Source: a virus. From it: 64,000 bases of DNA. The DNA lies in the IMG/VR virus record IMGVR_UViG_3300045988_175002. One strand, given 5' to 3'. The position numbers and the translations under genes are program-made. Positions 16,441 to 31,092 of this stretch are shown here, in pieces. The stretch's first letter is position 1; every line of letters starts with the position of its first letter. The notes under the pieces were generated by a model, which made no database searches, was not told the origin of the DNA, and worked only from the letters and a program-made list of their open reading frames with translations.

Positions 16441-16462
16441 CTGTGTGAACAATTCCAGTATA
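16441..16462 (-). promoter_or_regulatory. conserved promoter/operator-like motif copy M10
   Basis: ctgtgtgaacaattccagtata. Confidence 0.55.
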
Positions 16463-16699: not shown

Positions 16700-17857
16700 A
16701 TGACCAACCCATTCAAACCAACCGCCGGACGTATCCCACCGATACTCGTCGGACGAGAAGAAATCATCGAAGACTTCGACTATGCGCTGAAAGACGGTGT
16801 GGGAAGCCCCGGACGGCTGATGTTCCTCACAGGAGCCAGAGGAGTCGGCAAAACAGTCATGCTGGACACACTGGGAGAGCACGCCCAAAAACAAGGTTGG
16901 CAAATCTACAACGAAAGCGCCGACAAAGGCTTCACCCGAAGACTCGTGGACGCGCTCACCGGCAAGGACACCACCCGCATATCCGCATACGACATGCCCA
17001 AAGTAGGATTGAAAGGGGACGTCGGGAATCTTGAACTGAGCTTAGGGAGAATCGAACTCGAACATAATGAGGAACGTTCCCTGACACTCCGCCAAGCGGT
17101 CGGAAAACGATTGGACAAAATGAACGAGACCAAACAAGGAATCCTCATCACATTGGATGAGGTGCAGTCCGGTTCCATGGACGAAATCAGAGCACTGTCC
17201 ACCGCAGTGCAGCATCTCATCCGGGAAGGACGGAACATCGCGTTCGTTTTCGCCGGACTGCCGTCCGCAGTGAACGACGTGCTGTCCGACAATGCCATCA
17301 CTTTCCTGCAACGGGCGGAACGATACCATTTGGGGTCTGTCCCCACGGAAAAGGTATTGAAGGCGTTCGAGGAATCCTTCAGCGGCGAGAAGAAAGCCGG
17401 AATGGAAACGCTGATACGGTTGACCAACGCCACTCACGGTTATCCGTTCATGATTCAGCTGGTGGGCTATTGGGCTTGGCGGATGTCCGAAACCAACGGT
17501 CATGTGAATCAAGTGACCGAGGAGGACGCGGTCAAGGGTATCGAAAAAGCCCAAGCCAAACTAGGGGATATGGTTCACGCCCCAGCATTGCATGGCTTGC
17601 CATCCCATGCGGTGAACTATCTACTTGCCATGTCGGTGGATGATACGGTGTCGAATACAGGTGAAATCGCCCGTCGGTTGAACCGTTCGCCACAGTTCGC
17701 CAACGTGTATAGAACCAAGCTGATTGAGAACGATTTGATTGAGCCGGTCGGTTACGGTGAAGTCGCTTTCAAAATGCCGTATTTGCGGGATTACTTGCGT
17801 GAGCATGGGGCTTATTTGCAGATGCGGGAGAATATCAGCGAACGCTCGGAGAACTAG
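16700..17857 (+). CDS. AAA+/P-loop ATPase with C-terminal winged-helix-like region (386 aa)
   Basis: Walker A LTGARGVGKTVML and a probable Walker B at ILITLDEV. A C-terminal region resembling an HTH follows (TGEIARRLNRSPQFANVYRTKLIENDLIEP). Preceded by an unusually AT-rich stretch at 16640-16699. The track ORF start at 16637 is less likely than the ATG at 16700. Confidence 0.6.
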   Translation: MTNPFKPTAGRIPPILVGREEIIEDFDYALKDGVGSPGRLMFLTGARGVGKTVMLDTLGEHAQKQGWQIYNESADKGFTRRLVDALTGKDTTRISAYDMPKVGLKGDVGNLELSLGRIELEHNEERSLTLRQAVGKRLDKMNETKQGILITLDEVQSGSMDEIRALSTAVQHLIREGRNIAFVFAGLPSAVNDVLSDNAITFLQRAERYHLGSVPTEKVLKAFEESFSGEKKAGMETLIRLTNATHGYPFMIQLVGYWAWRMSETNGHVNQVTEEDAVKGIEKAQAKLGDMVHAPALHGLPSHAVNYLLAMSVDDTVSNTGEIARRLNRSPQFANVYRTKLIENDLIEPVGYGEVAFKMPYLRDYLREHGAYLQMRENISERSEN

Positions 17858-17929
17858 GTTTTGTTGTTCTGGGCGGTTTAGCATGGACAAGCTGGAAGAA
17901 TTCAATCCCGACACCATGTGACATTTACT

Positions 17930-17964
17930 GAAAAAGCCCCTCAGTCGAGGGGCTTTTCTTTTTG
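17930..17964. terminator. bidirectional rho-independent terminator
   Basis: aaaaagcccctcagtcgaggggcttttctttttg. A GC stem is flanked by an A-run and a T-run. It sits between the convergent genes ending at 17857 and 17965. Confidence 0.65.
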
Positions 17965-18972
17965 CTATCCCTTGTGCGTTTTCTCATACCATTCCACGAA
18001 TCCCAGCATGGCTTGCTGGAATGATGGTTTGAATTCGCCGTTTACGGGAATGTTTCGGTTGAGTGGCGTGGTCTTATAGTTTTCCGGTAAGGGTGTGGCG
18101 CACCATTCGGGTGGTATCCGGTCGGTGAATGGTTCCTCGCAATCGTCGCTGAACATGAGTCCTACCGGCTTGCCGTTGAGGAGGATTGTTGCGTGGGGGC
18201 TGATTTGTCCTTTCGCCAACCGGTATTCTCCTCTTGTCGTGTGTATTGGATAGTGGAAGGTTTCAGGTAGTCCTCCCCGCCGGTATTCGTCGCGTAATAG
18301 TCGAATCGGATTATAGTAGCGTTCCAATGCGGGGTATGCCCATTCGCATCCGCTCCAACAGTCGCGTACCCTGTCCATTCCGTCCCAGTTTTCTTTCGGA
18401 TTGGGTTGGATGCTGAGTTTGCGGTATCGGTCGGTTTGACACCAGCGGGCGGGATTGTTCAGGGCATAGTTCGGCGTGGTTTGTTCGGCTAACCGTATGA
18501 GAGTGCTGAGGGTGCATGAAGCATAATGTTGCTTGTCGTATCGTGCGACAAGCCGATACGGGTCGGCATCATCCTTGTTAAACACAGGCTTCAACACGCG
18601 TAAATGTTCCTCCGTTACGGGAATATCAAGGTCGGCTGGTAAACCCAACACTTCCATCCAACCTCCAAGCCTGTTCGTATCCCACTTGTAATCCTTGCAG
18701 TATTGCGCTTGCAACAGCCAAACCATCCAACGGCGCACATTCCGCATCAGTACGGGATGGGACGCGAATTCGAGAGGACGCCCCAGCATGTCATGATTCA
18801 CATTATCCGGCGTGGTAATACTGGTTCGATTACCGTACTCGTCCACTGCCGTCACGACGATATTGTGTCCGGCGTCCACAGCCTTGAACATGTCGCTGAT
18901 GTTGTCTTCCACGAACGTGGGCGGAATGGGACGCGACTGGACTTGACCATTAATCGGCACGGAGAGCATCAT
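17965..18972 (-). CDS. hypothetical protein (335 aa, Trp/Tyr-rich)
   Basis: ATG start. No motif recognised. Last gene of the minus-strand unit that contains the DGR. Confidence 0.5.
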   Translation of the reverse strand: MMLSVPINGQVQSRPIPPTFVEDNISDMFKAVDAGHNIVVTAVDEYGNRTSITTPDNVNHDMLGRPLEFASHPVLMRNVRRWMVWLLQAQYCKDYKWDTNRLGGWMEVLGLPADLDIPVTEEHLRVLKPVFNKDDADPYRLVARYDKQHYASCTLSTLIRLAEQTTPNYALNNPARWCQTDRYRKLSIQPNPKENWDGMDRVRDCWSGCEWAYPALERYYNPIRLLRDEYRRGGLPETFHYPIHTTRGEYRLAKGQISPHATILLNGKPVGLMFSDDCEEPFTDRIPPEWCATPLPENYKTTPLNRNIPVNGEFKPSFQQAMLGFVEWYEKTHKG

Positions 18973-19580
18973 TCACCATCCTCACTATTAGAGGCGAGTC
19001 GGGTTCGGAGTTCCCTCAACCGGCCTAACCGTTCCTCCACAGCCTGAATACGAACGTCAACCGCAGTCAACGTGTCACCATCCGGCTCAGACAACTCATA
19101 CTTGCCGGACGACAGTCGTTCCAGAAAACTGGTGGGAACATCCCATACCAATAATCGGAGTTTGTCGGGACTGAGATTCAACCCCGTATACAAGCCGGTT
19201 TTAGGCCACATGCCATCCACGAGAGCCACATTCGGCATCATGCGCGGTGGACGGTCGGGCTGATATTTTTCGACTAGGATTCGACCAGCGAACCAGATAA
19301 TGTCGCTATCCTGCTTGGAGTACGCGTACAAGTAGTCGTAGGGGTCGATGGTGACTGTGACACGCTTTTCAGCGTCCACGCCCTTATGCCACCAGAAATA
19401 TTTGTCTAAAGCTTCGAACACCAGCCTTTCCACACGCATATCGAACGTCCAAGTCTTCAACTTGTCATCAAACGTTCCACCCAACGCGCGGGAGCGACGT
19501 GCGAACAACGGATTATACGGAGCCTTAACCTTCAAACGGACATCACTGCGAGTGACCGTAATATCATCAAAACCTGCCAT
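18969..19580 (-). CDS. hypothetical protein (203 aa)
   Basis: ATG start. Overlaps the next gene by 4 nt, suggesting translational coupling. Lies downstream of the DGR reverse transcriptase. Confidence 0.5.
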   Translation of the reverse strand: MAGFDDITVTRSDVRLKVKAPYNPLFARRSRALGGTFDDKLKTWTFDMRVERLVFEALDKYFWWHKGVDAEKRVTVTIDPYDYLYAYSKQDSDIIWFAGRILVEKYQPDRPPRMMPNVALVDGMWPKTGLYTGLNLSPDKLRLLVWDVPTSFLERLSSGKYELSEPDGDTLTAVDVRIQAVEERLGRLRELRTRLASNSEDGE

Positions 19581-19849
19581 GACAGTTTCCTTTCACTCAA
19601 ACGGCATACTCTGACCAATGCGCTGATAACCTCTAAAGCCCCACATGGGCGAAGTCCCGAGGAAGGAAATGCAAGTAAACCCAGTGTAACACCAAGCTGG
19701 GAAGAAAAACTAGCCGACAAGCATGCCGAGTGAAATACGATACAATCCAAGCCTCACGAAATCTCATCCAAACGATTGAGGAAGCGGAAGATTCTGCGCC
19801 ACCGCTTCCAGCAGATTACACCCCTCCACCAATCTGGAAAGTCCGGAAA

Positions 19850-21079
19850 TCACGGGTGAAAAGCCAGCTTCCGCATTTCACAATGCCTCCGATACCACGC
19901 TTTCTCCCGAGCGCACAGTCCACGACGGTGAGTTAGACCCGACAGTGTGCTCTCATGGCTCGTCCAAGAATCCTGAACTGTCCGCAATCCCACATGCACG
20001 CCATCATATGAGCGGATAAAGTTACGCGCATGCCGTCGGCTTGCACGCAACGCCTTATGGTGCATGCGGATAAGAATACTGCCGTCATCCTGTACGCTGT
20101 ATACGCGTTTCAGGAATGTGAGTTGACCGGTGCGACAGTCCACTATGCGGGTCTTGCGCTTGTTCAACCGCAATCCCAATTGATTGACATGCCGCTCGTA
20201 ACCGGCCAGCACACGTTCGGCCTGTTCACGATTCTTGCAGAAACAGTAGGCATCATCCATATACCGTCCGTAGAATCCTTGCGACATGCACCAGTGGTCA
20301 ACCTTGTTCAAATACCAGATAGCCATGGTTTGGCTTGTCTGATTGCCTAAACCCAAGTGAGGTTCGTCCAATACGAAGATTCTCAATACGGTTAGAATCC
20401 GTTCCACATCCTGCTTCTCCCGTCCGGTGCGGGCGATGCTCCGGTACAGGGTGGAAATCATATCGAACGCTCGTTGGGAGCTGATACTTCCGAAATAGTT
20501 GGAACAGTCGAAGATGACAGCATACGGATGCTCCCATTTGCCCAAAGCCCGCTTATAGTGTAGTTCGAACCGTTTTCGGGCGAACGATGTTCCACGTTTC
20601 GGTAGGCTTGCCGCATTATCGTATATCAGTTGGCTTTCCACGATGGGGACGAGACTGTTGTCGCATAAGGCGCGTTGCACCACCCGGTCTCGGAAGGATA
20701 CCGCGCTGATGTGGCGGAGTTTGCCTCGTTCGGAAATGTCGAATCGGATTGGCGCTCTCTTCTTGTATGTGCCGTCCTCTAATTCTTGGGCGAGTTTCCA
20801 ACAGTTGACGGCACGCCTATTGTCGAAGTTCAACACTGTGTTTTTCCATGTGACGCCGCGTTTGCATTTTCTTGCGGCTTGGTAGAGCGCGTCGAATCCG
20901 AATGTTTGTTGGAAGTCGATGTAACGGTGGAGCTTCCTGTACTTATCATCCGAGCGTTGTTGCAGTCTGCGTTGGCGTCTTCTACGTCTTTGACTCGCAT
21001 TCACGATTTTAATGCTTCCTTCACTAGGGAAAGAGAAAAGAATGGTTGAGGGCAGGTCGTCGGCAACAACCCAAGACAT
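19850..21079 (-). CDS. DGR-type reverse transcriptase
   Basis: RT motifs are present. RVVQRAL...IYDNAASLPKRGTS covers motifs 1-2. FDCSNYFGSI is motif A. LGLGNQTSQ is the DGR-specific [I/L]GxxxSQ, in place of the group II QGxxxSP. YGRYMDDAY is YMDD. The protein is ~400 aa. It has a ~45-aa Arg-rich N-terminal extension (ATG at 21079; an alternative GTG lies near 21012). Confidence 0.85.
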   Translation of the reverse strand: MSWVVADDLPSTILFSFPSEGSIKIVNASQRRRRRQRRLQQRSDDKYRKLHRYIDFQQTFGFDALYQAARKCKRGVTWKNTVLNFDNRRAVNCWKLAQELEDGTYKKRAPIRFDISERGKLRHISAVSFRDRVVQRALCDNSLVPIVESQLIYDNAASLPKRGTSFARKRFELHYKRALGKWEHPYAVIFDCSNYFGSISSQRAFDMISTLYRSIARTGREKQDVERILTVLRIFVLDEPHLGLGNQTSQTMAIWYLNKVDHWCMSQGFYGRYMDDAYCFCKNREQAERVLAGYERHVNQLGLRLNKRKTRIVDCRTGQLTFLKRVYSVQDDGSILIRMHHKALRASRRHARNFIRSYDGVHVGLRTVQDSWTSHESTLSGLTHRRGLCAREKAWYRRHCEMRKLAFHP

Positions 21080-21261
21080 GCAATGATGTTGGACGCCCAG
21101 CTTAAGGGGCGAGTATCCGTCGTTTCCGACAGTCTTAATATCTCCCTCAACCTATTTCACACGCAACCCATTTTTCGAGGGGCCGCGCATTCGACCATAT
21201 CCCCTTCCCCTTCGGGAGGCTTTCACCCATTGGGCTACTGGCCTATCTGATGTTAGTTTTT

Positions 21262-21427
21262 GGTAAGAGGAATCGGGGACAACGGAGTAGCGATTGTTGG
21301 CATTGTTGTTGTAGCTGGGGTCGCCGTTCGAGTTCACTTGGAGGAAATTGTTGTTGTTGTTCGGGTTGGGCGAACGCTCCCACCAATTGTTGTTGTTAGC
21401 ACCAAGAGGAGTGGAACCGGAAACGGT
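21262..21427 (-). repeat. DGR template repeat (TR)
   Basis: ~165 bp, 91% identical to the 3' end of the target gene (offset 798 bp). The coding strand encodes ..NSNGDPSYNNNANNRYSVVP.. and is rich in AAC/AAT codons. All 15 mismatches to the VR fall on TR coding-strand A positions. Confidence 0.85.
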
Positions 21428-21469
21428 GTCACCATAGTTTGGATATGGCCGATTTTGTTCAATTATATT

Positions 21470-21985
21470 TTAGGCTTGCGCCCGAGTATCCATTATAGTG
21501 TTCGTTTTCGACTCGGCGTTTTTAGCTTTCTTCAACTGGTCTCGCTCATACTTGACGGCTCCGGTGAACACGCCCATCGCCTTGTAGAGGGTTCCCGCAT
21601 AGTTCACGAATTTCTTCTCCTTGACGACGGGATTGTATCTGGGGTCGCCTTCCGGATATTTCCTGTAGGCTTCCAAGTCTTTTTCCCGTGGAGGAAACTC
21701 CATCCAATCGTCCACAAGACCGGAGAGTGAGTTCAGCATGCCTTGGGCCTTGCACAACAGTTGCAGTTTCATCTCATGCTCTTCTACAGTGCTTGCATAA
21801 ATGATGTCGGCACTGTAGGCGGAGGAGTACATTTCGTAGGCGATATGCATGACATGCACGGTTTCAATGCAGTTACGGCTTTTAGGCCATTTGCGGAACA
21901 GATTTCTGGTAGCCAAGAGCACGATTCTGGCCTGATTCGCATATTCGCTTTTGGCTTTTGTACGTTTGCTTGCGGGAACCGTCAT
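21470..21985 (-). CDS. avd: putative accessory variability determinant (Avd-like small basic helical protein)
   Basis: 171 aa, basic (K/R-rich). ATG with an AAGGAG ribosome-binding site. It lies between the target and the TR, exactly where avd is found in DGRs. The assignment rests on position, size and charge, not on a recognised motif. Confidence 0.45.
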   Translation of the reverse strand: MTVPASKRTKAKSEYANQARIVLLATRNLFRKWPKSRNCIETVHVMHIAYEMYSSAYSADIIYASTVEEHEMKLQLLCKAQGMLNSLSGLVDDWMEFPPREKDLEAYRKYPEGDPRYNPVVKEKKFVNYAGTLYKAMGVFTGAVKYERDQLKKAKNAESKTNTIMDTRAQA

Positions 21986-22017
21986 AGGACTCCTTTTGTG
22001 TGAGATTTGAGTTTGGA

Positions 22018-22045
22018 GGGGTGGTGGGGATGAACCCCACCACCC
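22018..22045. other. perfect GC-rich hairpin immediately 3' of VR (DGR target-recognition hairpin candidate)
   Basis: gggtggtgggg-atgaa-ccccaccaccc is an 11-bp perfect stem with a 5-nt loop. It lies 15 nt past the target stop codon. No U-tract follows on either strand. Confidence 0.6.
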
Positions 22046-22057
22046 AAGGATTGGGGA

Positions 22058-22990
22058 TTAGAAGGAGAAAGCGGGGACAACGGAGTAGCGATAGTTGGCA
22101 CTGTTGTAGTAGCTGGGGTCGCCGTTCGAGTTCACTAGGAGGAAATAGTCGTAGTAGTCCGGGTCGGGCGAACGCTCCCACCAACTGTAGTAGTAAGCAC
22201 CAAGAGGAGTGGAACCGGAAACGGTCTTGTAGATGCCGGAGAGAATGCTATTACCCGACCAGTTATTTGTCACCTTACCGTGGAAATACTCGTATTGGCT
22301 TCCCTCCTGATTCAACGCTTGGAAACCACCAGAGGTCTTCCAACCATCGTATAAGGTTGGTACGAGTTCACGGTAGGAGACGAGCCATACTTTGTCTGCC
22401 GTGGCTGACGCGCTTGAACCGACTGTGCTTCCGTAGGCCATGTTGTTGGTTTGTTTCAGCACGGTTGTGACGTTGTTTTGGAAGTCGGTTGGGAATTGGT
22501 TCCAGATTTCACCATTGTTCATCTGATTGCGAAGAAGACTGTCACGCCAGCCGCCATTATTGGTGTGACTATTGTTCATGGCATACGCTTTCGGTAACGC
22601 GTTCCAAGCCATGAACGTCAATCCTGCTTTTCGTCCACTTCCGTCGGCTTTGTCGTCGTGGAGGATGCCGATGAGTCGGAATGGGAGGTTCGAGCCGTCT
22701 GATAGGGTGAGCGTGCCTTTGACCCCGTCGGTCAGGTTCTTTTCCATTGCGGCATAGTATGTGCTTCCTTTGCCTTTCTCGCTTAAATCGTCGGCAATCT
22801 GTTTCAATCCCGCCGCGTTATAGCCCGCGTAGCAAACCTTGTCCACGCCAGTATTGCATTTGGCTGGTTCGGCGGCTATTGCACTACCGGTGAGGAAGCC
22901 GCCGCAGACCGCGCTCATGATGGCGAGGGTGGCGAGGAGCCGCCGAACCATGTGACGGCTCCCGTGTGATTGTGTGGCGTGTTTGCCCAT
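22058..22990 (-). CDS. DGR variable (target) protein: secreted protein with C-terminal variable CLec-fold-like region
   Basis: ATG at 22988-22990 with a GAAAGGA ribosome-binding site. The signal peptide is MVRRLLATLAIMSAVCGGFLTGSAIA|AEP. The C-terminal ~50 residues (..YYYSWWERSPDPDYYDYFLLVNSNGDPSYYNSANYRYSVVPAFSF) are encoded by the VR. The WLVSYRELVPTL / YSVVP pattern resembles DUF1566/Lcl-type DGR targets; this resemblance is tentative. Confidence 0.75.
   Translation of the reverse strand: MGKHATQSHGSRHMVRRLLATLAIMSAVCGGFLTGSAIAAEPAKCNTGVDKVCYAGYNAAGLKQIADDLSEKGKGSTYYAAMEKNLTDGVKGTLTLSDGSNLPFRLIGILHDDKADGSGRKAGLTFMAWNALPKAYAMNNSHTNNGGWRDSLLRNQMNNGEIWNQFPTDFQNNVTTVLKQTNNMAYGSTVGSSASATADKVWLVSYRELVPTLYDGWKTSGGFQALNQEGSQYEYFHGKVTNNWSGNSILSGIYKTVSGSTPLGAYYYSWWERSPDPDYYDYFLLVNSNGDPSYYNSANYRYSVVPAFSF
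22060..22225 (-). repeat. DGR variable repeat (VR) at 3' end of target gene
   Basis: Aligns to the TR at an offset of 798 bp. The 15 substitutions are A->T (9), A->G (5) and A->C (1) on the coding strand, all at TR adenines. Homology ends a few nt before the stop codon, which marks the IMH-like boundary. Confidence 0.85.
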
Positions 22991-23001
22991 TCTTGTTCCT
23001 T

Positions 23002-26000
23002 TCACTGTTCTTCCTTCTTTCGTAGGAGGATGATTGCCGCGACGAGTCCGCTGATGCTGACGAGCATGAGGAGCGGCAACAGCAATCCCATGCCTGTGTG
23101 CGGCATGGTCGCCAACCATGTTTCAGGCAGGACACCCGCATCCACATGCTCCTTGGTTGGAGCATCTTGGGTGAGGGTGATGGTCAGCTTGTTGTCTTCG
23201 TCCGTGTAAGCGTCCGAATCAGTGGAGCTTCCATCCGTCGCAGGGGTCTTGTCTCCCACATCCGGCGTGGTGAAGTCCCGGTGGTTCACTTTGGTGAATT
23301 GGATACGGTATTTGTTGCCGTTCGCGTCCAGACGTTCGAAAATGTACTTGCCATCCTTGTCGGTCTTGGTGGTTGCCAACTGTTTGCCGTTCTCGTCAGT
23401 CAGAATGACCGTCTGACCGGCGAAATGCGTGTTCTCACCTTCATCTTGGATGCCGTTCTTGTTGGTGTCCTCCCAGTACAGGCCGCTGATGGAACCGAGT
23501 TTCTTCGCGGTGGTGGTTGGTGTGATGATGGTGCCGACTTGGTCGCAGGAGTCCTCGTCGGACGTGCTGAACCAGTGTTGGCGTCCTTCCTCCGTATAGT
23601 CCGTGTCGGTGCGGCATGTCGGATTGCCGGTCACATCATTCGTGTTGGTGTCCAGTTTCGTAGCGTCCGGAGTGTTCGGCGTGGTTTTGCCGATTGCGTG
23701 TGGCGTGCCCGAGTATGGTGTGTGTTCGGAGTCGAACCATGCTTGGTTGAGAATGGTCTTCGTATTCTTCTTAACCCACTCGTCAATGTACGACTGGTCT
23801 TTGCCTGTCATGTCAGCGGTCTCACGGTCAACTGTGCCGGTGAAATGGTAGATGACATAACCGCCCGGCTCAATCGCATACGGCAGATTATACGTGCGAG
23901 TAGTCAACCCATTCTCAGTGGTTTCGCTCGATGGCTCGACCGGTACGGCGGTTGGGTCGGACGATACCGCCATACCTTTCAAACCGGTGGAACGCGCGCC
24001 ACCCGTCTTACCGTCACCATACGGGTCGAAGCCCGCAATCATGACCTGTTTGCCAAGAATGAGCACGTCACGGTCGCCACCCGCCACGTCGGATGCGATG
24101 ATGCCCGTATCGACTGGGCCGATGACGTCCGTGTTGTTACCGGTGGAGCCGTTCGTCCAATACATGCCGTTGCCGGTCTTGCCGTTCGCCAATTGTCCGT
24201 CACCATTCCAGCCTGAGGCCCACAAGTGTTGGTTCTTGTCGATGGCGTACAGGGTATTGTATCCGCCGCTGATTTTCACAATGTCCTTCAAACCGGACAA
24301 GGTAGCACTATAGGTCGAGAACCAGAACACCGTCCCATCGTCTTTTAACGCGTACATTTGACCAAACGCGGCGGCGACTTGCGTGTAACCGCCACTGGAA
24401 AGCTGTCCCAAGGAAACGCCTGTACCGGAGTACAGGTATCCGCCGGACGTGTTCAAGGCGATGAAACCTTCCATGCTCGCACTGAGTTGAGTGAACTTGA
24501 CACCAGAACCGATTTGCGTCCAAGCCGCATAGTTCTGACTGCCTACAGCGTTTCCAACACCCCACAAAGTTCCGTCACTGGCGATGGCGACGGTGAACTG
24601 GTTGCCGCATGCCACGTCCGTGAACGTCTTATCCGAAGCGACTTCCGTCCACTGGTCACGATTATCCGTATCACCCGTACCCAATTGGCTGCTACCATTC
24701 CAACCGGTCGTATACAGGTGGCCGTCCGTGCTGATGGCGGCGGAATGTTTGCCACCGGCGGCGATTTTCAGCCAACTACCGTTGATGATGGTCGGCTTGT
24801 TCACGTTCGTTGGAGTGGCAGAATTCGTCGTGTCAGGCTTGAAACCAAGCTGACCATACTGGTTATTGCCCCACGCATACAACAAGCCCTCGCTCGTCAA
24901 CACGAACTTATGGTCGCCACTCGTCGCGACCTGCTTCGCGCCACCAGATTCGATGGAAACTGTACCGGCGGTAGCGGAAACATCATGCACATCAGCGCTC
25001 ATACGGTCAGAAACGACACTGGACGTGTCAAAACGACTAGTGCCAGAATTCTGTACTTTGACATCCCAGTTGATGACGCATTTCGTATCAGTGCAACTGG
25101 TGCCGGTGACGGTTTTGTCCACGGTGGCTTTCGGGTCTGGTTTCGCGTAACCGTAATCCACGCTGGTCTGGTTGATGCCGATAACCAAGTGGATGTCGTC
25201 GGAAGTGTCTTTCGCATTGGACTTGATTTTGTTCGACCAGCTTCGCGTGTTCACCACGTCTTCAAGCTTGTCGTAGTAGGTTTTGACCTGCGTCTGCACG
25301 CCATCACCCGTACTGGTGCCAGTGTTGCGTTTCACCGAAGTGCGGTAGGTGCCGGAGTGGAGTAGGTCGAACTCGTAATGACCGTCCTTATCGGTCTTCA
25401 CCGTTTTGACGGTCTGCCAGCCGCCGCTTGAATCCTGCTTGCCGAGGGTGACTTCCACCCCTTCGACACGTTCCTCACCGTCTCCGATGAGCGTGTTCTC
25501 ATCCTTATCCCACCAGACGGTGCCGCTGATGCTACCGGCCACTACCTTCGCCACGTCAGGCCACGGCTGGTTGCCCGCCGGTTTGTCGGAAGCGTCGGAA
25601 TAATAGTTGCGACCAAGCCACAGCGTGTACTTGTCGTCTTTCACATTGTCGGATGGGGTGAGTGTGATGGTGCCGTTCACCGCCGAATAGGACAGTTTAT
25701 CGTCAGACGCGACGACAGTGCTGGTCAGTCGGATGGCAGTGATGTTCTTCTTCTCGATGGCGGACAATTCATCCCATGTCTTCCACTCGTAGTCAGCCGG
25801 ATTATCCGACTTCTTTCCGGTGGTGGTTGAATAGTAGACGGTCGTACTGGTCGAATTGTCCATATTGACCGTGACGGGCTGGGTCAGTTCGTAGGAGCCA
25901 TGATAGTTGCTGTATCCACGCTCGTATTCGACCAGCTTGTCCTGCACGTACTTCTCATCACCATTCGCAGGAAGCAGTAGCATGCTATCCATGGTGCCGG

Positions 26001-28377
26001 TGTGACCGCCGCCCTTGCCGTACACGTTGAACTCCCAAGTAAGCGGGTCACTGATTTCAGCCTTCGTGGTCTTCACACGCATGATGCCACTGTTGGTTTC
26101 CGCATTGGAGACAGGGAATGGGACGCTGGGCGTATTGCTTTTGATGGTTTGGGCTTGCAATGCGCCGTTCTCGTCAACGTCCACGCTCATATTCGCACTG
26201 GCGGTCACAGTCCCGGTGGCGAGATTGGATACGATGCCACTGAAATGCAGGTCAGGCAAAGTGGCCGACCCCATACGGTCTACTTCAGGCGTGACTTTGC
26301 CAGAACGTGGCGTGAACACGAGATTATTCCCGTCCACTTTCATCTGCCAGAACGAATCATCACAGGTCGGATTGTACAAGCCTTTCGGTTTCGGCACCGT
26401 GATGGTCGGCGTCATGCTCGTATTGGACAGGAGAATGGTGCGCAACTGTTCCGTGACCGTATAATCCACTCGCATGCCGGGAATCAAATCGACTGCGCTT
26501 CCGGACGGGTGATTGGAACTGTTGTTCGCATACACTTGATTGCCTTCACCATCGTAGGCTTTCAGACTGATGTCGATACTGGTGGTCGGGTCTACCGGCT
26601 TGGCAATCCACACCCAATTGGTGACGCTCGCCTTATCGTCTTCGGTAAGCCATGCGGTCAGCGTATCCAAAGCTTCCACATTGCCTTTGGACACGTCGGC
26701 TATGGCGAGCGTGTTGAACGTGACCTGAACGTTCGGCGCACCCTTTCCTAAAGTCAACGTGTCGGGGTTGAACGTCACCCGAATCTTCTTGACGTTCGGA
26801 GCGTCCGTGTCGGATGGTTCCCCGTCATGCCAATTGTCTTTGCTATCAGCCCATTGAACTTTGTAGTCGGAAACCGGAGCACCGTTCTGGGTGACTTCCA
26901 AGCTTCCATCCCACCGCATGCGCGTATTATCCCACTCATCCTGCATGGTCGGCGTAGTGTTTTTAAGCTTGTCCGCAGTAACGTTCGCCGCATACATTTC
27001 CAAAATGGTTTTGACTTGCGTTCCACGGGACACGGTGTCGCCGGAACCGTCGGAATAGTAATGGTAGATGTCGGCTTTGCCTTCGGCGGCGTCGAACGTC
27101 AGATTCTCCTTGTCGAACATGGTCTTGGACGCAGTGTTAGGACGTTGCAGTCCTTTGCCGAACAGTGGAATCTTGCCAGCTGGAGTCGGCTTGAGCCGTT
27201 GGATGATGGCTCGTGACCAGTCATTGTTCGCGTACGGGTAGCCGACGCGGGCACCCGTATCCTTGTTGTAGGTGCTCTTGTCCCGTCCAATGTTCCAGCC
27301 GGGTTCGCCGCCCTTGCCCATGTTCAACAGTGCGTTGCCGTTATCGTCTTTGACGCTGAACACGGTTTCGTCGGGAACAAGGTGGACATCGTAATATTTG
27401 ACGTCTCCTTCTTTCATGTTTTTGAGCGCGTCGGTTCCGGCGGGAATCCTGTAGCTGATTGTCGCCGCCGTACCGTTTTTGCCACTGGATACGGTCAAAT
27501 ACTGTTCTTTATCACTGTTACGGGTAATCCGCTGACCGCCTACAGTCCACACGGTGCCCTGCGGGAAGTCGGAAATATCCACTTTGGTAGTCCAATCGAT
27601 GCTGGTGGACGCGCCCTTCGTGGACGAATAACCCGGATAGGTCAACGCGTCGGTACGAATAGTGAAATCACCGGTCGCATCGGTGTTCTGACTCCAATAA
27701 GTACGATGCTCATACGAGTATTGGCCTTTCACCGGATTGCCGCCATTGTCAATGACCAAGTCAGCCGCCGGAGCGGATACTACAGTCAGCTCATCCGTAC
27801 GATACGTGGTTGACGTTCCACCTTCGCGGGCGACGACGATTTTCGGAATCTGACCCGGCTTGACCAAGCCTCCCGTGTCTTTTGCTTTCAGATAGAAGGT
27901 TTGGGTCATGGTTTCCACGCCACCGGCTGGAACCGTGTAGGAGCAGGAGCCGTCACTGTTTTTCTTCGCGGTGACGAGTTGTCCCGGCTGGCAGAAGCCA
28001 CCACCGTCAGCAGTCTGCAAATACGGCGCGTCATCCAAGTCGAACTTCACGTTGATGGTACGCTTGCCCGCCGCGTTGAAGTTCAACGTGAGAGAATATT
28101 CGACCGTATCACCGGATGCGACCACGCCATCGGTAGGGGAATCATCGCCCGTGGCGAACCCGTTCTTCGAATTCACGAACGTTTGCGAACTCGTGCCATG
28201 CCCCGTACCGTCGGCTTTCTTAACGATTTTCGCAGTAGCATATGCGGGTTTCAACTCGTCCGCATGCGCTTTCGGAGAGGCTACCGGATTGGTCATGCAT
28301 ATCAGGCCGGATGACAGTGTGGCGATTGCGGCCAATAATGCTACCGGATGTGCCACATGCTTTTTGAGAATACCCAT
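23002..28377 (-). CDS. giant LPXTG-anchored surface adhesin with RCC1 beta-propeller repeats and CnaB/SdrD-B-type domains (~1790 aa)
   Basis: Own start at ATG 28375-28377 with an AAGAAGGAA ribosome-binding site. Signal peptide MGILKKHVAHPVALLAAIATLSSGLICMTNPVASPKAHA. Repeated YxWGxNxxGQLG RCC1 blades. Multiple prealbumin-like B domains of the form GxVWxDxDxNGxxD...DGxYxF. C-terminal LPHTG, followed by a hydrophobic helix and RKKEEQ. In the ORF track it is fused to the sortase ORF. Confidence 0.75.
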   Translation of the reverse strand: MGILKKHVAHPVALLAAIATLSSGLICMTNPVASPKAHADELKPAYATAKIVKKADGTGHGTSSQTFVNSKNGFATGDDSPTDGVVASGDTVEYSLTLNFNAAGKRTINVKFDLDDAPYLQTADGGGFCQPGQLVTAKKNSDGSCSYTVPAGGVETMTQTFYLKAKDTGGLVKPGQIPKIVVAREGGTSTTYRTDELTVVSAPAADLVIDNGGNPVKGQYSYEHRTYWSQNTDATGDFTIRTDALTYPGYSSTKGASTSIDWTTKVDISDFPQGTVWTVGGQRITRNSDKEQYLTVSSGKNGTAATISYRIPAGTDALKNMKEGDVKYYDVHLVPDETVFSVKDDNGNALLNMGKGGEPGWNIGRDKSTYNKDTGARVGYPYANNDWSRAIIQRLKPTPAGKIPLFGKGLQRPNTASKTMFDKENLTFDAAEGKADIYHYYSDGSGDTVSRGTQVKTILEMYAANVTADKLKNTTPTMQDEWDNTRMRWDGSLEVTQNGAPVSDYKVQWADSKDNWHDGEPSDTDAPNVKKIRVTFNPDTLTLGKGAPNVQVTFNTLAIADVSKGNVEALDTLTAWLTEDDKASVTNWVWIAKPVDPTTSIDISLKAYDGEGNQVYANNSSNHPSGSAVDLIPGMRVDYTVTEQLRTILLSNTSMTPTITVPKPKGLYNPTCDDSFWQMKVDGNNLVFTPRSGKVTPEVDRMGSATLPDLHFSGIVSNLATGTVTASANMSVDVDENGALQAQTIKSNTPSVPFPVSNAETNSGIMRVKTTKAEISDPLTWEFNVYGKGGGHTGTMDSMLLLPANGDEKYVQDKLVEYERGYSNYHGSYELTQPVTVNMDNSTSTTVYYSTTTGKKSDNPADYEWKTWDELSAIEKKNITAIRLTSTVVASDDKLSYSAVNGTITLTPSDNVKDDKYTLWLGRNYYSDASDKPAGNQPWPDVAKVVAGSISGTVWWDKDENTLIGDGEERVEGVEVTLGKQDSSGGWQTVKTVKTDKDGHYEFDLLHSGTYRTSVKRNTGTSTGDGVQTQVKTYYDKLEDVVNTRSWSNKIKSNAKDTSDDIHLVIGINQTSVDYGYAKPDPKATVDKTVTGTSCTDTKCVINWDVKVQNSGTSRFDTSSVVSDRMSADVHDVSATAGTVSIESGGAKQVATSGDHKFVLTSEGLLYAWGNNQYGQLGFKPDTTNSATPTNVNKPTIINGSWLKIAAGGKHSAAISTDGHLYTTGWNGSSQLGTGDTDNRDQWTEVASDKTFTDVACGNQFTVAIASDGTLWGVGNAVGSQNYAAWTQIGSGVKFTQLSASMEGFIALNTSGGYLYSGTGVSLGQLSSGGYTQVAAAFGQMYALKDDGTVFWFSTYSATLSGLKDIVKISGGYNTLYAIDKNQHLWASGWNGDGQLANGKTGNGMYWTNGSTGNNTDVIGPVDTGIIASDVAGGDRDVLILGKQVMIAGFDPYGDGKTGGARSTGLKGMAVSSDPTAVPVEPSSETTENGLTTRTYNLPYAIEPGGYVIYHFTGTVDRETADMTGKDQSYIDEWVKKNTKTILNQAWFDSEHTPYSGTPHAIGKTTPNTPDATKLDTNTNDVTGNPTCRTDTDYTEEGRQHWFSTSDEDSCDQVGTIITPTTTAKKLGSISGLYWEDTNKNGIQDEGENTHFAGQTVILTDENGKQLATTKTDKDGKYIFERLDANGNKYRIQFTKVNHRDFTTPDVGDKTPATDGSSTDSDAYTDEDNKLTITLTQDAPTKEHVDAGVLPETWLATMPHTGMGLLLPLLMLVSISGLVAAIILLRKKEEQ

Positions 28378-29283
28378 TAGTGTTCCTTCTTTGCGTGGTT
28401 TTTTTCTACGGATGATGAGAATGGTGATGATGATTACCGCAAGCCAGAAGCCGCCGACGTACAGTATGAGCCATTGGTTCGTGTGGTCTTTCGGCGCGTT
28501 TTCGGGTCTGGGTGCGGGGTGCGGCATGCTGGCGCGCGTGCCGGTCACTAGGAGTCGCTTGTTGTTGATGCCGTATGGCGTGCAGGTTAGGAGTGTGGCG
28601 AGGTCTTTTCCGGCGACGATTTTCAGTTTGGTGAAATCGGATGGGTCTACCACATCAATGCTTGTGACCTTGTAGGCGAGCGTATGTCCGGCGGTTATCA
28701 GATAGAAGACGTCACTTTTTTTGGCTTCACTGCCGAAGCCTCGTAGCTTGTCGAACATGAGCTGGTCTGCCAAACCCGTATGCGCGGATATGACAGTATG
28801 CGTGTTCTTGCCGCCGACGGGGAGACTGGAACCATATAAGTGTCCGGCTCCAGCGGCCAACACGTTTTGCGACGTGCCATGCCGGATGGGCAGGTTGATG
28901 CCCAAGCGTGGATATTTGATGGTAGCCATGACCCCATCCTTGGGGGTGGATAGTTGCTTCCGATACGTGTTGTCCGTTTCGGACTTGTTGACGCCCGTCC
29001 AAGGGTCTTCCGCCTCACCAAGAATGGGCTGACCCTCCTCGTATAGGCGTTGATTGTAGGCTTTCGCGTCCGCATACTCTTGGGCGATTCGTTTCACGTC
29101 AGTGTTTTCCACGGCTTGCGCGTGGGAGTCAGTCAACCGGTTGGATTGGCTGCTATTCGAAATCATGAGGATGAATGGGATGGTTCCGGACAGGGCGGAT
29201 AGGATTAGGCAGAGGAGTCCCGCTATGGCTCGATTTCCCAAGCCTTTCGGTTTCGCCGTATGTTTTCCCAAAACCCCTCCCAT
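28378..29283 (-). CDS. srtC: class C (pilus-associated) sortase; no in-frame stop before the adhesin start
   Basis: Contains VISAHTG (catalytic His), TLLTCTPYG (the TLXTC catalytic Cys) and a downstream Arg (LLVTGTRA). An N-terminal TM is followed by a C-terminal TM, WLILYVGGFWLAVIIITILII, and then RRKKPRKEG. The reading frame continues without a stop into the adhesin. Confidence 0.7.
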
Positions 29284-29400
29284 GCGGTTATAAAGAATCT
29301 AAAAGGTGGCGTGTCGATATTTGGGTTCCCGACACGCCAAGCGGAACATTTCATGCTTTTCCAGCCGTCAAACGGTCAGAAAAGTTTTCTCATACGACTC

Positions 29401-31092
29401 TCACGCCTTGCGACGAAGCAGCAGGGCGGAAGCGCCAGCCAACAGGACGGTCATCACGCCGAAGATGGACAGCCAGACCGCACCGGTCTTCGGCATGTCG
29501 GCAATGTTACGGGCGTTGATGACGGTCACACCCAGATGGTCGGCGTTCTCGGAAGCCAGATTGTTGGCGTCCTTATCGAACTGACTGAGCGTGTAGGAGC
29601 CGTTCGATTGGTTCACCTTGATGGTCAGGGTGAACTGCGGCAGGATGGAGCCATTGAACGGACTCTTTGTCTCCTTGACCGTGTACTTGCCGTCGAGACC
29701 AGTCAGAGTGAGCACGCCATTGCTAGTAGCGACGCTGGTGACGGTGTCGGTGGTGCCGGTGCTCTCGGTCAGGTCGGCCTTACGGTACGTATTGTCGTTC
29801 ACCTTGATGAACTTGACCGGAGTGGCGGTCTGGTTGCCCTCGTACACCTTGAACTCAGCTCCGGCGAGCGGCGCGTTGTTCGTGTCGTGCTTGGTGAGGG
29901 TGAACTTGCCGACGTACACCTTGTCGGTCTGACCCGGAGTGGTCTTATGGTCGGTGACAGTGTTCGGGTTGTGGGAGTATTCGACGTTGTTGGTGTTGGT
30001 GTCGGCGGTGCCGGAGACGGCGTTCTTGTTCACATACATGTCGTAAGTGACTTTGACGGCGGCATCGACCGGGAACTTGGCTTTCATCGCCACGATGTCG
30101 GATGCGGTGGTGGAGTCACCGGTGGTCGGAGCGAAGATGATGTGGAACTTGCCATCCTCAGTAGTGACCTTGTAATCGGTGTCGCGGATGAGGGTCTTAC
30201 CGTCCACGGTCACGACCATGTTGTCCTTGGCCGCGTCATAGGTCAGGCCCTTGGAATACGTATCGTTGATGGCGTAATAGTACTTGTCGTAGCCAGTCCA
30301 GTTCGGCACTTTGCTGGTCATTTCGAAGCTGACCTTCTTGCCGATAGCGGTTTCGGCGGTCGCGCCACTGTTTTCGACGGTGCCGTTTTCGGCGGCGGTA
30401 ATCTTCTTCGTGACGGTGGTGCTGTGTACCTTATAGTTCACGGTGCCCAGTGTGTAGGTCTTGGCGCCGTTCTTCAACATAGTCTTGCCGTCGATGCCAG
30501 TGCCGTTGAACATGACGATGGATGCCTCGCCCTTGACGGTGGTGTCCACTACCGCATATACGCCCGGACGGACGGATGCGGTCATGTGCTGGGCGTCGGC
30601 GCCCTTGGCGAACGCGGTGCCCTTGTCGCCGGTGACGGCGGTCTCGTTCTTCAACTGGTCGAGGAAGTCACGAAGCTTGCCAGCCCACGGACTGTTCTCG
30701 GAATCAAGCAAGTTCTGTACGACCCACACCATCGGATTGGACGCATTATAGTCGTATCCGGCAGTCTGGTCTTTCTTGGACTTGGTGTCGATATTGGCTT
30801 TAGTCAATGCGTCAGCGATAGCAGAAGCCTTGCCCGCGTCAATCAAGTCAAAGCCAGTAATATTAGTACCATCAGTCTGCGCATACGAATAGTAGGCGAG
30901 CGGCACAGCCTTCAACGTGCGATTGCTAATATCACCATTAGCAGTGACGGTCAACGTCTGACGAGCAGCCGCACCAAGCTTGGATGCGTCAACACGAGCA
31001 TCAGCCGCCATGGCGGAGCCGACTCCAGCCAAACCCATGGCACCGGCCACAAGCGTGGCGACCGTTGCCTTCAACAGGTTTTTGGTTTTCAC
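29401..31092 (-). CDS. sortase-dependent pilin-like surface protein (563 aa) with CnaB-type domains
   Basis: GTG start with an AAGGAAAGGAAA ribosome-binding site. Signal peptide MKTKNLLKATVATLVAGAMGLAGVGSAMA. The YVGKFTLTKHDTNNAPLAGAEFKVY stretch is CnaB/isopeptide-domain-like. The C-terminal sorting signal is DMPKTG, followed by a hydrophobic helix and RRKA; the MPKTG is non-canonical. Confidence 0.65.
   Translation of the reverse strand: MKTKNLLKATVATLVAGAMGLAGVGSAMAADARVDASKLGAAARQTLTVTANGDISNRTLKAVPLAYYSYAQTDGTNITGFDLIDAGKASAIADALTKANIDTKSKKDQTAGYDYNASNPMVWVVQNLLDSENSPWAGKLRDFLDQLKNETAVTGDKGTAFAKGADAQHMTASVRPGVYAVVDTTVKGEASIVMFNGTGIDGKTMLKNGAKTYTLGTVNYKVHSTTVTKKITAAENGTVENSGATAETAIGKKVSFEMTSKVPNWTGYDKYYYAINDTYSKGLTYDAAKDNMVVTVDGKTLIRDTDYKVTTEDGKFHIIFAPTTGDSTTASDIVAMKAKFPVDAAVKVTYDMYVNKNAVSGTADTNTNNVEYSHNPNTVTDHKTTPGQTDKVYVGKFTLTKHDTNNAPLAGAEFKVYEGNQTATPVKFIKVNDNTYRKADLTESTGTTDTVTSVATSNGVLTLTGLDGKYTVKETKSPFNGSILPQFTLTIKVNQSNGSYTLSQFDKDANNLASENADHLGVTVINARNIADMPKTGAVWLSIFGVMTVLLAGASALLLRRKA

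What the first reader, a model, noticed from the sequence alone, without database searches (positions are those of the whole stretch)
19850..23119. Complete diversity-generating retroelement with adenine-specific TR/VR differences
A 165-bp repeat pair (TR 21262-21427; VR 22060-22225 at the 3' end of the gene at 22058-22990) is 91% identical. Every one of the 15 differences lies at an adenine of the TR coding strand: A->T 9, A->G 5, A->C 1. No other base differs. Between the two repeats sit a small basic ORF in the avd position and a reverse transcriptase with the DGR-specific LGNQTSQ (IGxxxSQ-type) and YMDD motifs. The order target-avd-TR-RT and the co-orientation are canonical. This is direct sequence evidence for an active, or recently active, mutagenic-homing system that diversifies the C-terminal ~50 residues of a secreted protein.
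Basis: seen in the sequence. Interest (0 to 1): 0.9.

Follow-up and report, generated by a model that had tools for sequence, protein, structure and literature searches.

The report
Diversity-generating retroelement on a Bifidobacterium megaplasmid
This is a genuine, complete diversity-generating retroelement, a reverse-transcriptase system that rewrites the tip of one secreted lectin-like protein at adenine-templated positions; it sits on a large Bifidobacterium plasmid-like element, it is a well-known kind of system, and its helper protein is too divergent for current databases to recognise.

Summary
On the minus strand, a 154-nt TR (21274-21427) and VR (22072-22225) differ at 14 positions. 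All 14 are TR adenines; 0 of 111 non-A positions differ. They mark an IMH/IMH*-like boundary, so the stated 3' limit overshoots by about 9-12 nt.

The gene order is target, accessory, TR, spacer, RT. The RT carries LGNQTSQ and YMDD, and its best solved relative is the Bordetella DGR RT (8ub7).

Eighteen related contigs keep the TR nearly invariant, yet every VR differs (252 A-site versus 7 non-A substitutions). TR polymorphisms are copied into the cognate VR. In 43 homologues, variation sits on A-bearing TR codons.

The target is a DUF6273, C-type-lectin-like secreted protein, a documented DGR target class.

The accessory protein matches no Avd model by sequence. It is predicted to be an Avd-like four-helix bundle, and its small family lies in DGR cassettes in 7 of 7 loci checked.

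The host element is collinear with the B. breve megaplasmid pMP7017, and no phage hallmark was identified.

Verdict: a real, recently active DGR and a new member of a known kind.

The parts
22058..22990 (-). Target gene: 310-aa secreted DUF6273 (C-type-lectin-like) protein. It has an N-terminal signal-like hydrophobic segment and the VR at its C-terminus.
22072..22225 (-). Variable region (VR), 154 nt, encoding residues 256-306. The hypervariable residues are 266-302.
   Evidence: 14 differences from the TR, all at TR adenines, and 0 of 111 non-A positions differ. Entropy is 1.95 bits at A-bearing codons vs 0.17 at other VR codons.
22058..22071 (-). IMH-like 3' boundary of the VR (CTTTCTCCTTCTAA, including the stop codon). 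It is fixed in all related VRs.
   Evidence: The same five differences from the TR side occur in every related VR. AFSF is invariant in 43 homologues. The same GAT(TR)/GCT(VR) junction occurs in distant cassettes L021, L023 and L025.
22019..22045 (-). GC-rich hairpin (11-bp perfect stem, 5-nt loop TTCAT), 12 nt downstream of the target stop codon. It is a candidate target-recognition hairpin/cruciform.
   Evidence: Inverted repeat I1. DNA fold -14.7 kcal/mol, z -5.2, 0 of 200 shuffles fold as well. Compensatory stem changes in L011/L015/L017, L012 and L016, with an invariant loop.
21470..21985 (-). Accessory gene in the avd position: 171 aa, basic (pI 9.4). The predicted fold is a four-helix bundle with a beta-hairpin insert and a long fourth helix.
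   Evidence: No Pfam, NCBIfam or PDB sequence hit. AF2 pLDDT 88. Top Foldseek matches are Avd-family bundles 2gsc, 2rld and 8ub7_B. The family sits in a DGR cassette in 7 of 7 loci checked.
21274..21427 (-). Template repeat (TR), 154 nt with 43 adenines. It holds 17 AAY codons in the VR reading frame.
   Evidence: The TR is identical or nearly identical in the related contigs while the VRs differ.
21260..21273 (-). IMH*-like 3' end of the TR (ATTCCTCTTACCAA). It differs from the VR side at fixed positions.
21005..21259 (-). Spacer between the TR and the RT. It is presumed to be part of the DGR RNA that primes cDNA synthesis.
   Evidence: 97.8-100% identical in lineages whose target and accessory genes are only 76-82% identical. 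No significant single-sequence fold (z -0.27) and no Rfam match. The role is inferred by analogy.
19850..21079 (-). DGR-type reverse transcriptase. The maximal ORF is 409 aa; the likely real start is GTG 21004, preceded by GAAGGA, giving 384 aa.
   Evidence: RVT_1 3e-13. PHROG 1423 3e-57. Best PDB match 8ub7_A, E 7e-14. LGNQTSQ aligns to bRT IGSLTSQ, and YMDD is present. Homologues align from residue ~46.
19714..19729 (-). Terminator-like hairpin plus T-run downstream of the RT.
   Evidence: Consensus scan only. This is weak evidence.
23002..31092 (-). Upstream co-oriented context: sortase, a ~1800-aa RCC1/SdrD-B adhesin with a C-terminal sorting-signal-like tail, and a backbone pilin.
   Evidence: Pfam hits for Sortase, RCC1, SdrD_B, GramPos_pilinBB and SpaA. 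The same arrangement occurs in B. pseudocatenulatum isolates.

Best explanation
This is a complete diversity-generating retroelement. The inferred mechanism follows the Bordetella paradigm. The accessory-TR-spacer-RT region is transcribed. The RT, with the Avd-like four-helix-bundle protein, copies the TR RNA into cDNA and misincorporates opposite template adenines. The cDNA then replaces the VR at the 3' end of the target gene. Directionality comes from the IMH-like boundary and the GC hairpin next to the VR. The 17 AAY codons of the TR allow about 15^17 (~1e20) variants of a ~37-residue surface of a secreted C-type-lectin-like DUF6273 protein, and no substitution at those codons can create a stop codon.

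Shown here: the parts, the adenine specificity, the stability of the TR against variation in the VR across natural populations, and the copying of TR polymorphisms into the VR.

Inferred: cDNA priming, the RT-accessory complex, and the biological ligand.

The cassette sits on a Bifidobacterium megaplasmid-like element related to pMP7017, directly downstream of a sortase/pilus-adhesin cluster. The diversified protein is most likely an extracellular ligand-binding factor of the plasmid-bearing cell.
For: Adenine specificity:
- 14 of 14 core differences lie at TR adenines and 0 of 111 non-A positions differ.

RT class:
- The best solved relative is 8ub7 chain A, described as the DGR ribonucleoprotein RT (E 7e-14; next class 2e-4).
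- The [LIV]GxxxSQ and YMDD motifs are present.
- The top plasmid relatives are RTs next to annotated avd and FGE-family genes.
- Group II, retron and Drt models score far below their cut-offs.

Population evidence:
- 18 contigs carry an RT 98-100% identical to this one.
- The TR is identical in 8 of those loci and differs by 1-3 bases in six more, while each VR differs. There are 252 A-site vs 7 non-A substitutions over 13 unique ungapped VRs.
- Non-A TR polymorphisms in L013/L018 and L015/L017 are present in their own VRs.
- Entropy in 43 homologues is 1.95 bits at A-bearing codons, 0.17 at other VR codons and 0.22 outside the VR.

Other parts:
- The hairpin is conserved, with compensatory changes.
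- The target is CLec-like. DUF6273 is a published DGR target domain with the VR at its C-terminus (PMC10743442, PMC11792537, bioRxiv 10.1101/2024.10.15.618418).
- The accessory protein has an Avd-like predicted fold and an obligate cassette position.

Megaplasmid context:
- 9 of 14 ORFs tested are collinear with pMP7017 at 38-59% aa identity.
- Two ParA-type ATPases and DnaB are present.
Against: - No direct evidence of activity exists for this particular molecule. One sequence cannot show ongoing mutagenesis.
- The accessory protein fails every sequence test for Avd (hhalign E 0.078). The structural matches are statistically weak (Foldseek E 0.009-0.38), because four-helix bundles are common.
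- The spacer has no detectable conserved structure.
- Related elements have lost parts of the system. B. pseudocatenulatum isolates lack the TR and RT, and L009 lacks the accessory gene. Loss is therefore frequent.
- The related contigs are catalogued as viral in IMG/VR.
Confidence: 0.92

Rival explanations
1. The cassette is structurally complete but no longer active in this genome. The VR would then be a frozen record of past mutagenic homing.
For: Related elements show decay. Isolate genomes retain the target, VR and hairpin but have lost the 3' part of the accessory gene, the TR and the RT. L009 has a VR/TR recombination that removes the accessory gene. A single sequence cannot show ongoing activity.
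Against: The RT, accessory ORF, TR, IMH-like boundary and hairpin are all intact here. The RT is 98-99% identical in protein across lineages. Of 15 related contigs in which both repeats could be compared, only two pairs share a VR. TR polymorphisms have been transferred to VRs within lineages.
Confidence: 0.12
2. The element is a large phage or phage-plasmid, and the DGR diversifies a virion receptor-binding protein, as in most published DUF6273 cases.
For: All 18 related contigs come from IMG/VR. The RT hits a PHROG family strongly, and several neighbours hit PHROGs of unknown function. DUF6273 targets are mainly described in gut phages.
Against: No capsid, terminase, portal or tail family was identified among the roughly 40 larger ORFs of the 64-kb window that were scanned. 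Nine ORFs are collinear with the conjugative megaplasmid pMP7017. ParA x2, DnaB and a sortase/pilin/adhesin cluster are present. The target has its own signal sequence and follows a pilus operon. There is no near match in 50,697 phage records.
Confidence: 0.08
3. This is not a DGR. The repeat would be an ordinary duplication with chance A-biased divergence, next to an unrelated group II intron or retron RT.
For: NCBIfam's best-scoring model for the RT is group_II_RT_mat (86.8 bits). That library has no DGR RT model.
Against: That score is far below the 300-bit cut-off. The best PDB match is the DGR RT. P is about 6e-13 for the A restriction. The population pattern cannot arise from neutral divergence of a duplication.
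Confidence: 0.01

Closest known systems
Bordetella phage BPP-1 DGR (mtd-avd-TR-brt), the prototype; structure 8ub7
   Same: Same gene order, target(VR)-accessory-TR-spacer-RT. Adenine-specific TR-to-VR differences. RT with [I/L]GxxxSQ and YMDD, and its best solved relative. A C-terminal VR in a C-type-lectin-like fold. An IMH-like fixed boundary and a GC hairpin 3' of the VR. A basic helical-bundle accessory protein.
   Different: Host element: a plasmid-like Bifidobacterium element rather than a temperate phage. Target: a small secreted DUF6273 protein, not the Mtd tail-fibre tip. Accessory protein: 171 aa with a beta-hairpin insertion and an extended helix 4, not detectable as bAvd by sequence. 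Hairpin loop: 5 nt; I recall a 4-nt loop in BPP-1, from memory and not checked here.
Gut-phage DGRs with DUF6273 targets (tentaclins and Mtd-like targets of nd4/nd12; Faecalibacterium prophages Lelie, CP11, Roos, Pioen; Toutatisvirus)
   Same: The same target domain (DUF6273, CLec-like) with the VR at the C-terminal end of the domain.
   Different: Those are virion or virion-associated proteins of Bacillota phages. Here the target is a stand-alone secreted protein downstream of a sortase-pilus cluster on a pMP7017-like backbone. The Toutatisvirus cassette is described with an Avd gene; this one is not recognised as Avd.
Cellular or mobile-element DGRs with secreted targets (Treponema denticola TvpA, 2y3c; the Legionella pneumophila genomic-island DGR, cited from my own knowledge)
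   Different: TvpA is FGE-type CLec rather than DUF6273. The phyla differ, and those targets are lipoprotein-anchored.
pMP7017-family Bifidobacterium conjugative megaplasmids
   Same: Collinear backbone block: DnaB, a ParA/CobQ-like ATPase, an 886-aa ATPase-like protein and a large 1334-aa protein, at 38-59% aa identity.
   Different: No nucleotide-level similarity. No DGR RT homologue appeared among the listed plasmid hits, and no Bifidobacterium plasmid record carries a homologue of the DUF6273 target. The pMP7017 paper does not mention a retroelement.

Membership tests
Diversity-generating retroelement (DGR) | Reverse transcriptase of the DGR clade ([I/L/V]GxxxSQ motif and YxDD catalytic motif; closer to DGR RTs than to group II, retron or defence RTs) | tested here: met
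   LGNQTSQ and YMDD are present. The best PDB relative is the DGR RT 8ub7_A, E 7e-14, against 2e-4 for the next class. The top plasmid hits are RTs adjacent to annotated avd. Group II, retron and Drt NCBIfam scores are far below their cut-offs. No formal phylogeny was built.
Diversity-generating retroelement (DGR) | A TR/VR repeat pair whose differences are restricted to adenines of the TR | tested here: met
   14 of 14 differences at A and 0 of 111 non-A in the 154-nt core. 252 vs 7 across 13 unique related VRs.
Diversity-generating retroelement (DGR) | VR inside a protein-coding target, typically at the C-terminus of a C-type-lectin-fold or Ig-like domain | tested here: met
Diversity-generating retroelement (DGR) | Accessory protein Avd (Pfam bAvd PF22296 / 23S-rRNA-IVS four-helix-bundle family) or an HRDC protein | tested here: inconclusive
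   Sequence membership is not met: no Pfam or NCBIfam hit for the protein or for 20 relatives, and hhalign vs a bona fide bAvd gives E 0.078. Fold and position are met: the AF2 model is a four-helix bundle (pLDDT 88), the top Foldseek matches are 2gsc, 2rld and 8ub7_B with weak E-values, and the family sits between VR and TR in 7 of 7 loci.
Diversity-generating retroelement (DGR) | IMH at the 3' end of the VR vs IMH* at the 3' end of the TR (fixed differences that set directionality) | tested here: met
   Five fixed differences in the last 14 nt are identical in all related VRs. The same GAT/GCT junction occurs in distant cassettes. The function itself cannot be tested here.
Diversity-generating retroelement (DGR) | GC-rich hairpin/cruciform downstream of the VR | tested here: met
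   11-bp stem, z -5.2. Compensatory substitutions occur in three divergent lineages.
Diversity-generating retroelement (DGR) | Demonstrated RT-dependent mutagenic homing (cDNA intermediate, VR change over time) | not testable with these tools
   Only indirect population evidence is available: constant TR, variable VRs, and TR polymorphisms mirrored in VRs.
pMP7017-like Bifidobacterium megaplasmid | Shared, collinear backbone genes | tested here: met
   9 of 14 ORFs tested between 31.3 and 54.9 kb match the pMP7017 dnaB region in order, at 38-59% aa identity.
pMP7017-like Bifidobacterium megaplasmid | Extrachromosomal circular replicon with a RepB-type initiator and conjugation functions | not tested
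   Only 64 kb is available. Related contigs are 90-217 kb, and isolate contigs are ~185 kb. Circularity, the replicase and the relaxase were not examined.

The most novel reading that the evidence does not exclude
The cassette represents a distinct DGR sub-lineage of Gram-positive conjugative or plasmid-like elements. Its markers would be an unannotated Avd-like accessory family and DUF6273 targets. Its role would be to diversify an extracellular lectin that works with the adjacent sortase-assembled pilus/adhesin, changing which recipient cells or host glycans the plasmid-bearing cell binds. That would be a plasmid counterpart of phage tropism switching, functionally analogous to the R64 shufflon that varies the PilV tip adhesin. 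Supporting hints: the pMP7017-like backbone, the position directly downstream of a sortase/adhesin/pilin cluster, and a distant cassette (L025) that lies beside a TraG-type T4SS coupling protein and has a SpaA-domain, 4x DUF6273 target.
Probability: 0.15. Interest if true: 0.7.

Novelty: new member of a known kind. Interest (0 to 1): 0.36.

Why it matters
- It gives a clean, population-validated example of targeted protein hypervariation in Bifidobacterium, a health-relevant gut genus. The cassette is carried on a megaplasmid-like element rather than a prophage.
- It flags an accessory-protein family that Pfam and NCBIfam miss. Annotation that relies on those models will report such cassettes as lacking Avd.
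- The diversified protein is a secreted lectin-like factor next to pilus genes. It is therefore a candidate determinant of strain-specific adhesion or mating, and the natural DGR-plus and DGR-minus variants could be used to test this.

Tried and rejected
- Extra VRs: an A-tolerant scan and short-word BLAST of the TR against both strands of the window found only the one VR.
- RNA annotation: an Rfam scan of the whole window and a tRNA scan found nothing. A single-sequence fold of TR plus spacer was not better than shuffles (z -0.27). The related loci are too similar in the spacer (98-100%) for a covariation test, so I built no RNA model.
- GTDB species representatives: no relative of the RT.
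- PLSDB and INPHARED near-identity searches with the cassette and with 24.7 kb of backbone: no match. One call failed on a length limit.
- Sequence routes to Avd all failed: Pfam, NCBIfam, PDB phmmer, Pfam on 21 family members, and hhalign against an annotated Avd.
- Weak antibody heavy-chain hits for the accessory protein and the VR region were dismissed as compositional (Y/S/N/G-rich).
- I considered and rejected a group II intron or retron RT, a chance duplication, and, with less certainty, a phage-borne cassette.
- The L011 ungapped TR/VR comparison is misaligned by a 3-nt indel, so I excluded it from the substitution totals.


Full report
**1. The observation**

All features lie on the minus strand. 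The repeat finder recovers one long direct repeat, 21260-21427 vs 22058-22225, in exact register with an offset of 798 nt.

Read on the coding strand, the stretch 21271-21427 vs 22069-22225 has 15 differences. All are at TR adenines: A>T 9, A>G 5, A>C 1. The hypergeometric probability of all 15 falling on A is about 6e-13.

The stated 3' limit (21262) overshoots. The last 9 nt add four mismatches, three of them at non-A bases. An A-tolerant scan of both strands of the whole window finds exactly one VR for this TR. In the 154-nt core (TR 21274-21427, VR 22072-22225), 0 of 111 non-A positions differ and 14 of 43 A positions differ.

**2. Anatomy**

Read 5' to 3' on the minus strand, the cassette contains these parts:
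- **Target gene, 22990-22058 (310 aa).** An AAAGGA ribosome-binding site precedes ATG 22990. The longer ORF from 23119 overlaps the upstream gene and lacks a ribosome-binding site.
- **VR**, at the extreme C-terminus of the target (residues 256-306).
- **A 14-nt boundary** ending in the stop codon.
- **A hairpin at 22045-22019.** It has a perfect 11-bp G/C-rich stem and a TTCAT loop. The DNA fold is -14.7 kcal/mol, z -5.2.
- **A 171-aa basic ORF, 21985-21470** (pI 9.4, good ribosome-binding site).
- **TR, 21427-21274.**
- **A spacer.**
- **The RT ORF, 21079-19850.** The first 25 codons lack a ribosome-binding site and homologues align only from about residue 46. The real start is therefore probably GTG 21004, preceded by GAAGGA.
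- **A terminator-like hairpin at 19729-19714** (weak evidence).

It does not; only the accessory ORF does.

**3. The RT is DGR-type**

- Pfam sees only the generic RVT_1 domain.
- The best solved relative is 8ub7 chain A, E 7e-14 over residues 50-376. In that alignment LGLGNQTSQ lines up with IPIGSLTSQ, and YMDD with YMDD.
- The next RT class, Cas6-RT-Cas1, scores 2e-4, and no group II RT passes 0.01.
- The fold search labels 8ub7 as 'Diversity-generating retroelement (DGR) ribonucleoprotein reverse transcriptase'.
- tblastn against 72,556 plasmids puts cyanobacterial RTs first (29% identity, E 4e-21). In Acaryochloris the top hit lies next to a gene annotated avd and to FGE-family genes. Group II ltrA scores only E 4e-6.
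- NCBIfam group II, retron and Drt models all score far below their cut-offs.
- PHROG 1423 matches at 3e-57.

**4. Evidence for mutagenic homing in nature**

The RT is absent from 185,579 GTDB species representatives. It occurs at 98-100% identity on 18 IMG/VR contigs of 13-217 kb, 17 of them 90-217 kb.

In these loci the TR is identical to the window's in 8 cases and differs by 1-3 bases in six more. Every VR is different. Comparing each VR with its own TR gives 252 A-site and 7 non-A substitutions over 13 unique ungapped VRs. L011 was excluded because a 3-nt indel misaligns it.

Where a lineage's TR carries a non-A polymorphism, its own VR carries the same change. This is seen in L013/L018 and in L015/L017; L006/L007 likewise share an A>G between TR and VR. 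That is what TR-to-VR copying predicts.

At the protein level, I compared the window's protein with 42 close homologues. Many of them fall into separate 90% clusters, and some clusters hold hundreds of member sequences. Mean column entropy is 1.95 bits at the 28 codons whose TR copy has A at position 1 or 2. It is 0.17 bits at the other 28 VR codons and 0.22 bits outside the VR. The residues seen (Y, S, N, D, G, H, F, C, R, I and others) are those reachable from AAY.

The TR has 17 AAY codons, so about 15^17 variants are possible and none of them can create a stop codon. This is standard DGR arithmetic and an inference.

**5. Boundary elements**

The five differences in the last 14 nt of the repeat are the same in every related VR. 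The last four residues, AFSF, are invariant in all 43 proteins, while the TR would encode DSSY. The same GAT(TR)/GCT(VR) junction recurs in three distantly related cassettes.

This behaves like IMH vs IMH*: fixed differences that mark the recipient. The mutagenised tract therefore ends near residue 302.

The hairpin is conserved in all loci, with compensatory changes. The stem reads GGGTGGTGGGG/CCCCACCACCC in the window, GGTGGGTGGGG/CCCCACCCACC in L011/L015/L017, and GGGGGTGGGG/CCCCACCCCC in L012. The loop is constant.

**6. The accessory protein**

It has no hit in Pfam, NCBIfam or PDB sequences. It has only 6 relatives by word-seeded search of 5.8 billion proteins. It has 33 representatives in an exhaustive HMMER search of 1.84 billion cluster representatives. 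None of 21 aligned members hits any Avd model.

AlphaFold2 on that alignment gives a confident model (pLDDT 88, pTM 0.77). It has helices at 14-30, 35-61, 67-96 and 123-170, with a small beta-hairpin at 100-119.

Foldseek against the PDB ranks these matches among the top:
- 2gsc first (TM 0.81 on the target, probability 1.00).
- 2rld (an 'S23 ribosomal protein family' bundle).
- 8ub7 chain B (probability 0.99, TM 0.70), a 122-residue chain of the Bordetella DGR complex, which I take to be Avd.

The E-values are weak (0.009-0.38), because helical bundles are common. hhalign of the family against an Acaryochloris Avd gives a collinear but non-significant alignment, E 0.078. That Avd itself matches Pfam bAvd at 4e-21.

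Genomic position is the stronger argument. In seven loci encoding distant family members, the gene always lies just downstream of a DUF6273 gene, just upstream of a DGR-type RT, or both, as far as the contig reaches. In the three loci where I searched for repeats (L021, L023, L025), an A-specific VR/TR pair brackets it.

I conclude it is the functional counterpart of Avd: Avd-like in fold, with homology unproven.

**7. The target**

Pfam DUF6273 matches residues 172-352 of the 353-aa maximal ORF, which is about 129-309 of the 310-aa protein (1.8e-15). The AF2 model (pLDDT 79) has a disordered N-terminal signal region and a mixed alpha/beta domain, with the VR forming the last strands.

Three papers already describe DUF6273 as a C-lec-like DGR target; two of them place the VR at the domain's C-terminus. 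The target class is therefore known.

**8. Host and element**

Named homologues of the target come from Bifidobacterium pseudocatenulatum, B. moukalabense and Bifidobacteriaceae.

The window encodes a sortase, a ~1800-aa RCC1/SdrD-B adhesin with a C-terminal sorting-signal-like tail, and a backbone pilin, all immediately upstream of the target and co-oriented with it. It also encodes an SPFH/flotillin protein, DnaB, two ParA-type ATPases, and IS200/IS605 TnpA and TnpB genes.

No virion gene family was identified among the roughly 40 larger ORFs scanned.

DnaB is 54% identical to that of pMP7017, the 190-kb B. breve conjugative megaplasmid. Nine of the 14 ORFs tested between 31.3 and 54.9 kb are collinear with the pMP7017 dnaB region at 38-59% identity. 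There is no nucleotide-level match to any plasmid or phage record.

PLSDB holds no Bifidobacterium plasmid record with a homologue of the target. No Bifidobacterium record appeared among the listed RT hits. The pMP7017 transcriptome paper does not mention a retroelement.

I therefore read the element as a distinct lineage of pMP7017-like megaplasmid. The IMG/VR 'viral' label is probably a misclassification, but this is not proven.

**9. Decay variants**

Two B. pseudocatenulatum isolate assemblies carry an ~86%-identical version on ~185-kb contigs. They have the sortase, adhesin, target, a mutated VR, the hairpin and the first ~157 bp of the accessory gene. The segment corresponding to window ~21828-15846 is missing; it covers the rest of the accessory gene, the TR, the RT and the downstream genes. 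This is an orphan, frozen VR.

In L009 the VR and TR have recombined, or the assembly has collapsed them, which removes the accessory gene.

In L010, L012 and L016 the target and accessory genes are only 76-82% identical to the window's. The spacer, RT and downstream genes are 98-100% identical, so there is a recombination mosaic with a breakpoint near the TR.

**10. Comparison and verdict**

Mechanistically this is a standard DGR of the BPP-1 type. Every defining feature I could test is met except sequence membership of the accessory protein in the Avd family.

DGRs are already reported in Bifidobacterium, and DUF6273 targets are already described.

What is new is the instance:
- a megaplasmid-like carrier;
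- a stand-alone secreted target beside a pilus cluster;
- an unannotated Avd-like accessory family that defines a small DGR sub-lineage.

The finding is real and well supported. In kind it is ordinary: a new member of a known kind, of moderate interest.

Noticed in passing
window 23002-29283 (-): The sortase (N-terminal ~300 aa) and the ~1800-aa RCC1/SdrD-B adhesin form one uninterrupted 2093-aa ORF here. In B. pseudocatenulatum isolates they are two genes overlapping by 1 nt (L019: 1-560 and 560-5950). This could be a real fusion, a frameshift or a sequencing indel. The C-terminal sorting motif reads MPHTG rather than LPXTG.
   Followed up: no
L019/L020 7119-7464 vs window 15720-21828: Isolate genomes GCA_020526265.1 and GCA_001686045.1 have lost the 3' part of the accessory gene, the TR, the RT and ~4 kb downstream. 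The right-hand junction (window ~15846) lies beside an IS200/IS605 tnpA (13932-14528) and a high-GC block (57.5% at 14-16 kb). This suggests an IS-associated deletion that leaves an orphan VR.
   Followed up: partly
L009 5653-5813: The target gene runs straight from the VR into the TR and its flank, with the accessory gene missing. This is either homologous recombination between VR and TR or a repeat collapse in the metagenome assembly.
   Followed up: partly
window 21633-21654 vs 21309-21330: A 22-nt stretch inside the accessory ORF (encoding EGDPRYNP in the predicted beta-hairpin insert) is 86% identical to part of the TR (NGDPSYNN). BLAST E is about 0.11, so it may be chance. More distant family members have a different sequence there.
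   Followed up: partly
L010, L012, L016 vs window 17965-24200: A mosaic structure. The adhesin 3' end, target and accessory genes are 76-82% identical to the window, while the spacer, RT and downstream genes are 98-100% identical. This indicates recombination with a breakpoint near the TR.
   Followed up: partly
window 3302-4624, 7200-8756, 13932-14528 (all -): Two TnpB/Cas12f-like (OrfB_IS605 / TNB domain) genes and one IS200-type TnpA lie within 20 kb of the DGR. A related TnpB also flanks the locus in the isolate contigs (L019 10342-11790).
   Followed up: no
L025 1-8501: A distant cassette of the same sub-lineage has a target of at least 1312 aa, with an N-terminal SpaA (pilin-like) domain and four tandem DUF6273 repeats (753-nt period). 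Only the last repeat is paired with the TR. A TraG/VirD4-type T4SS coupling protein gene follows the RT.
   Followed up: partly
window 58572-59597 (+) and 16637-17857 (+): A GmrSD_C-domain protein and an AAA_16-type ATPase. These are possible defence genes on the same element.
   Followed up: no
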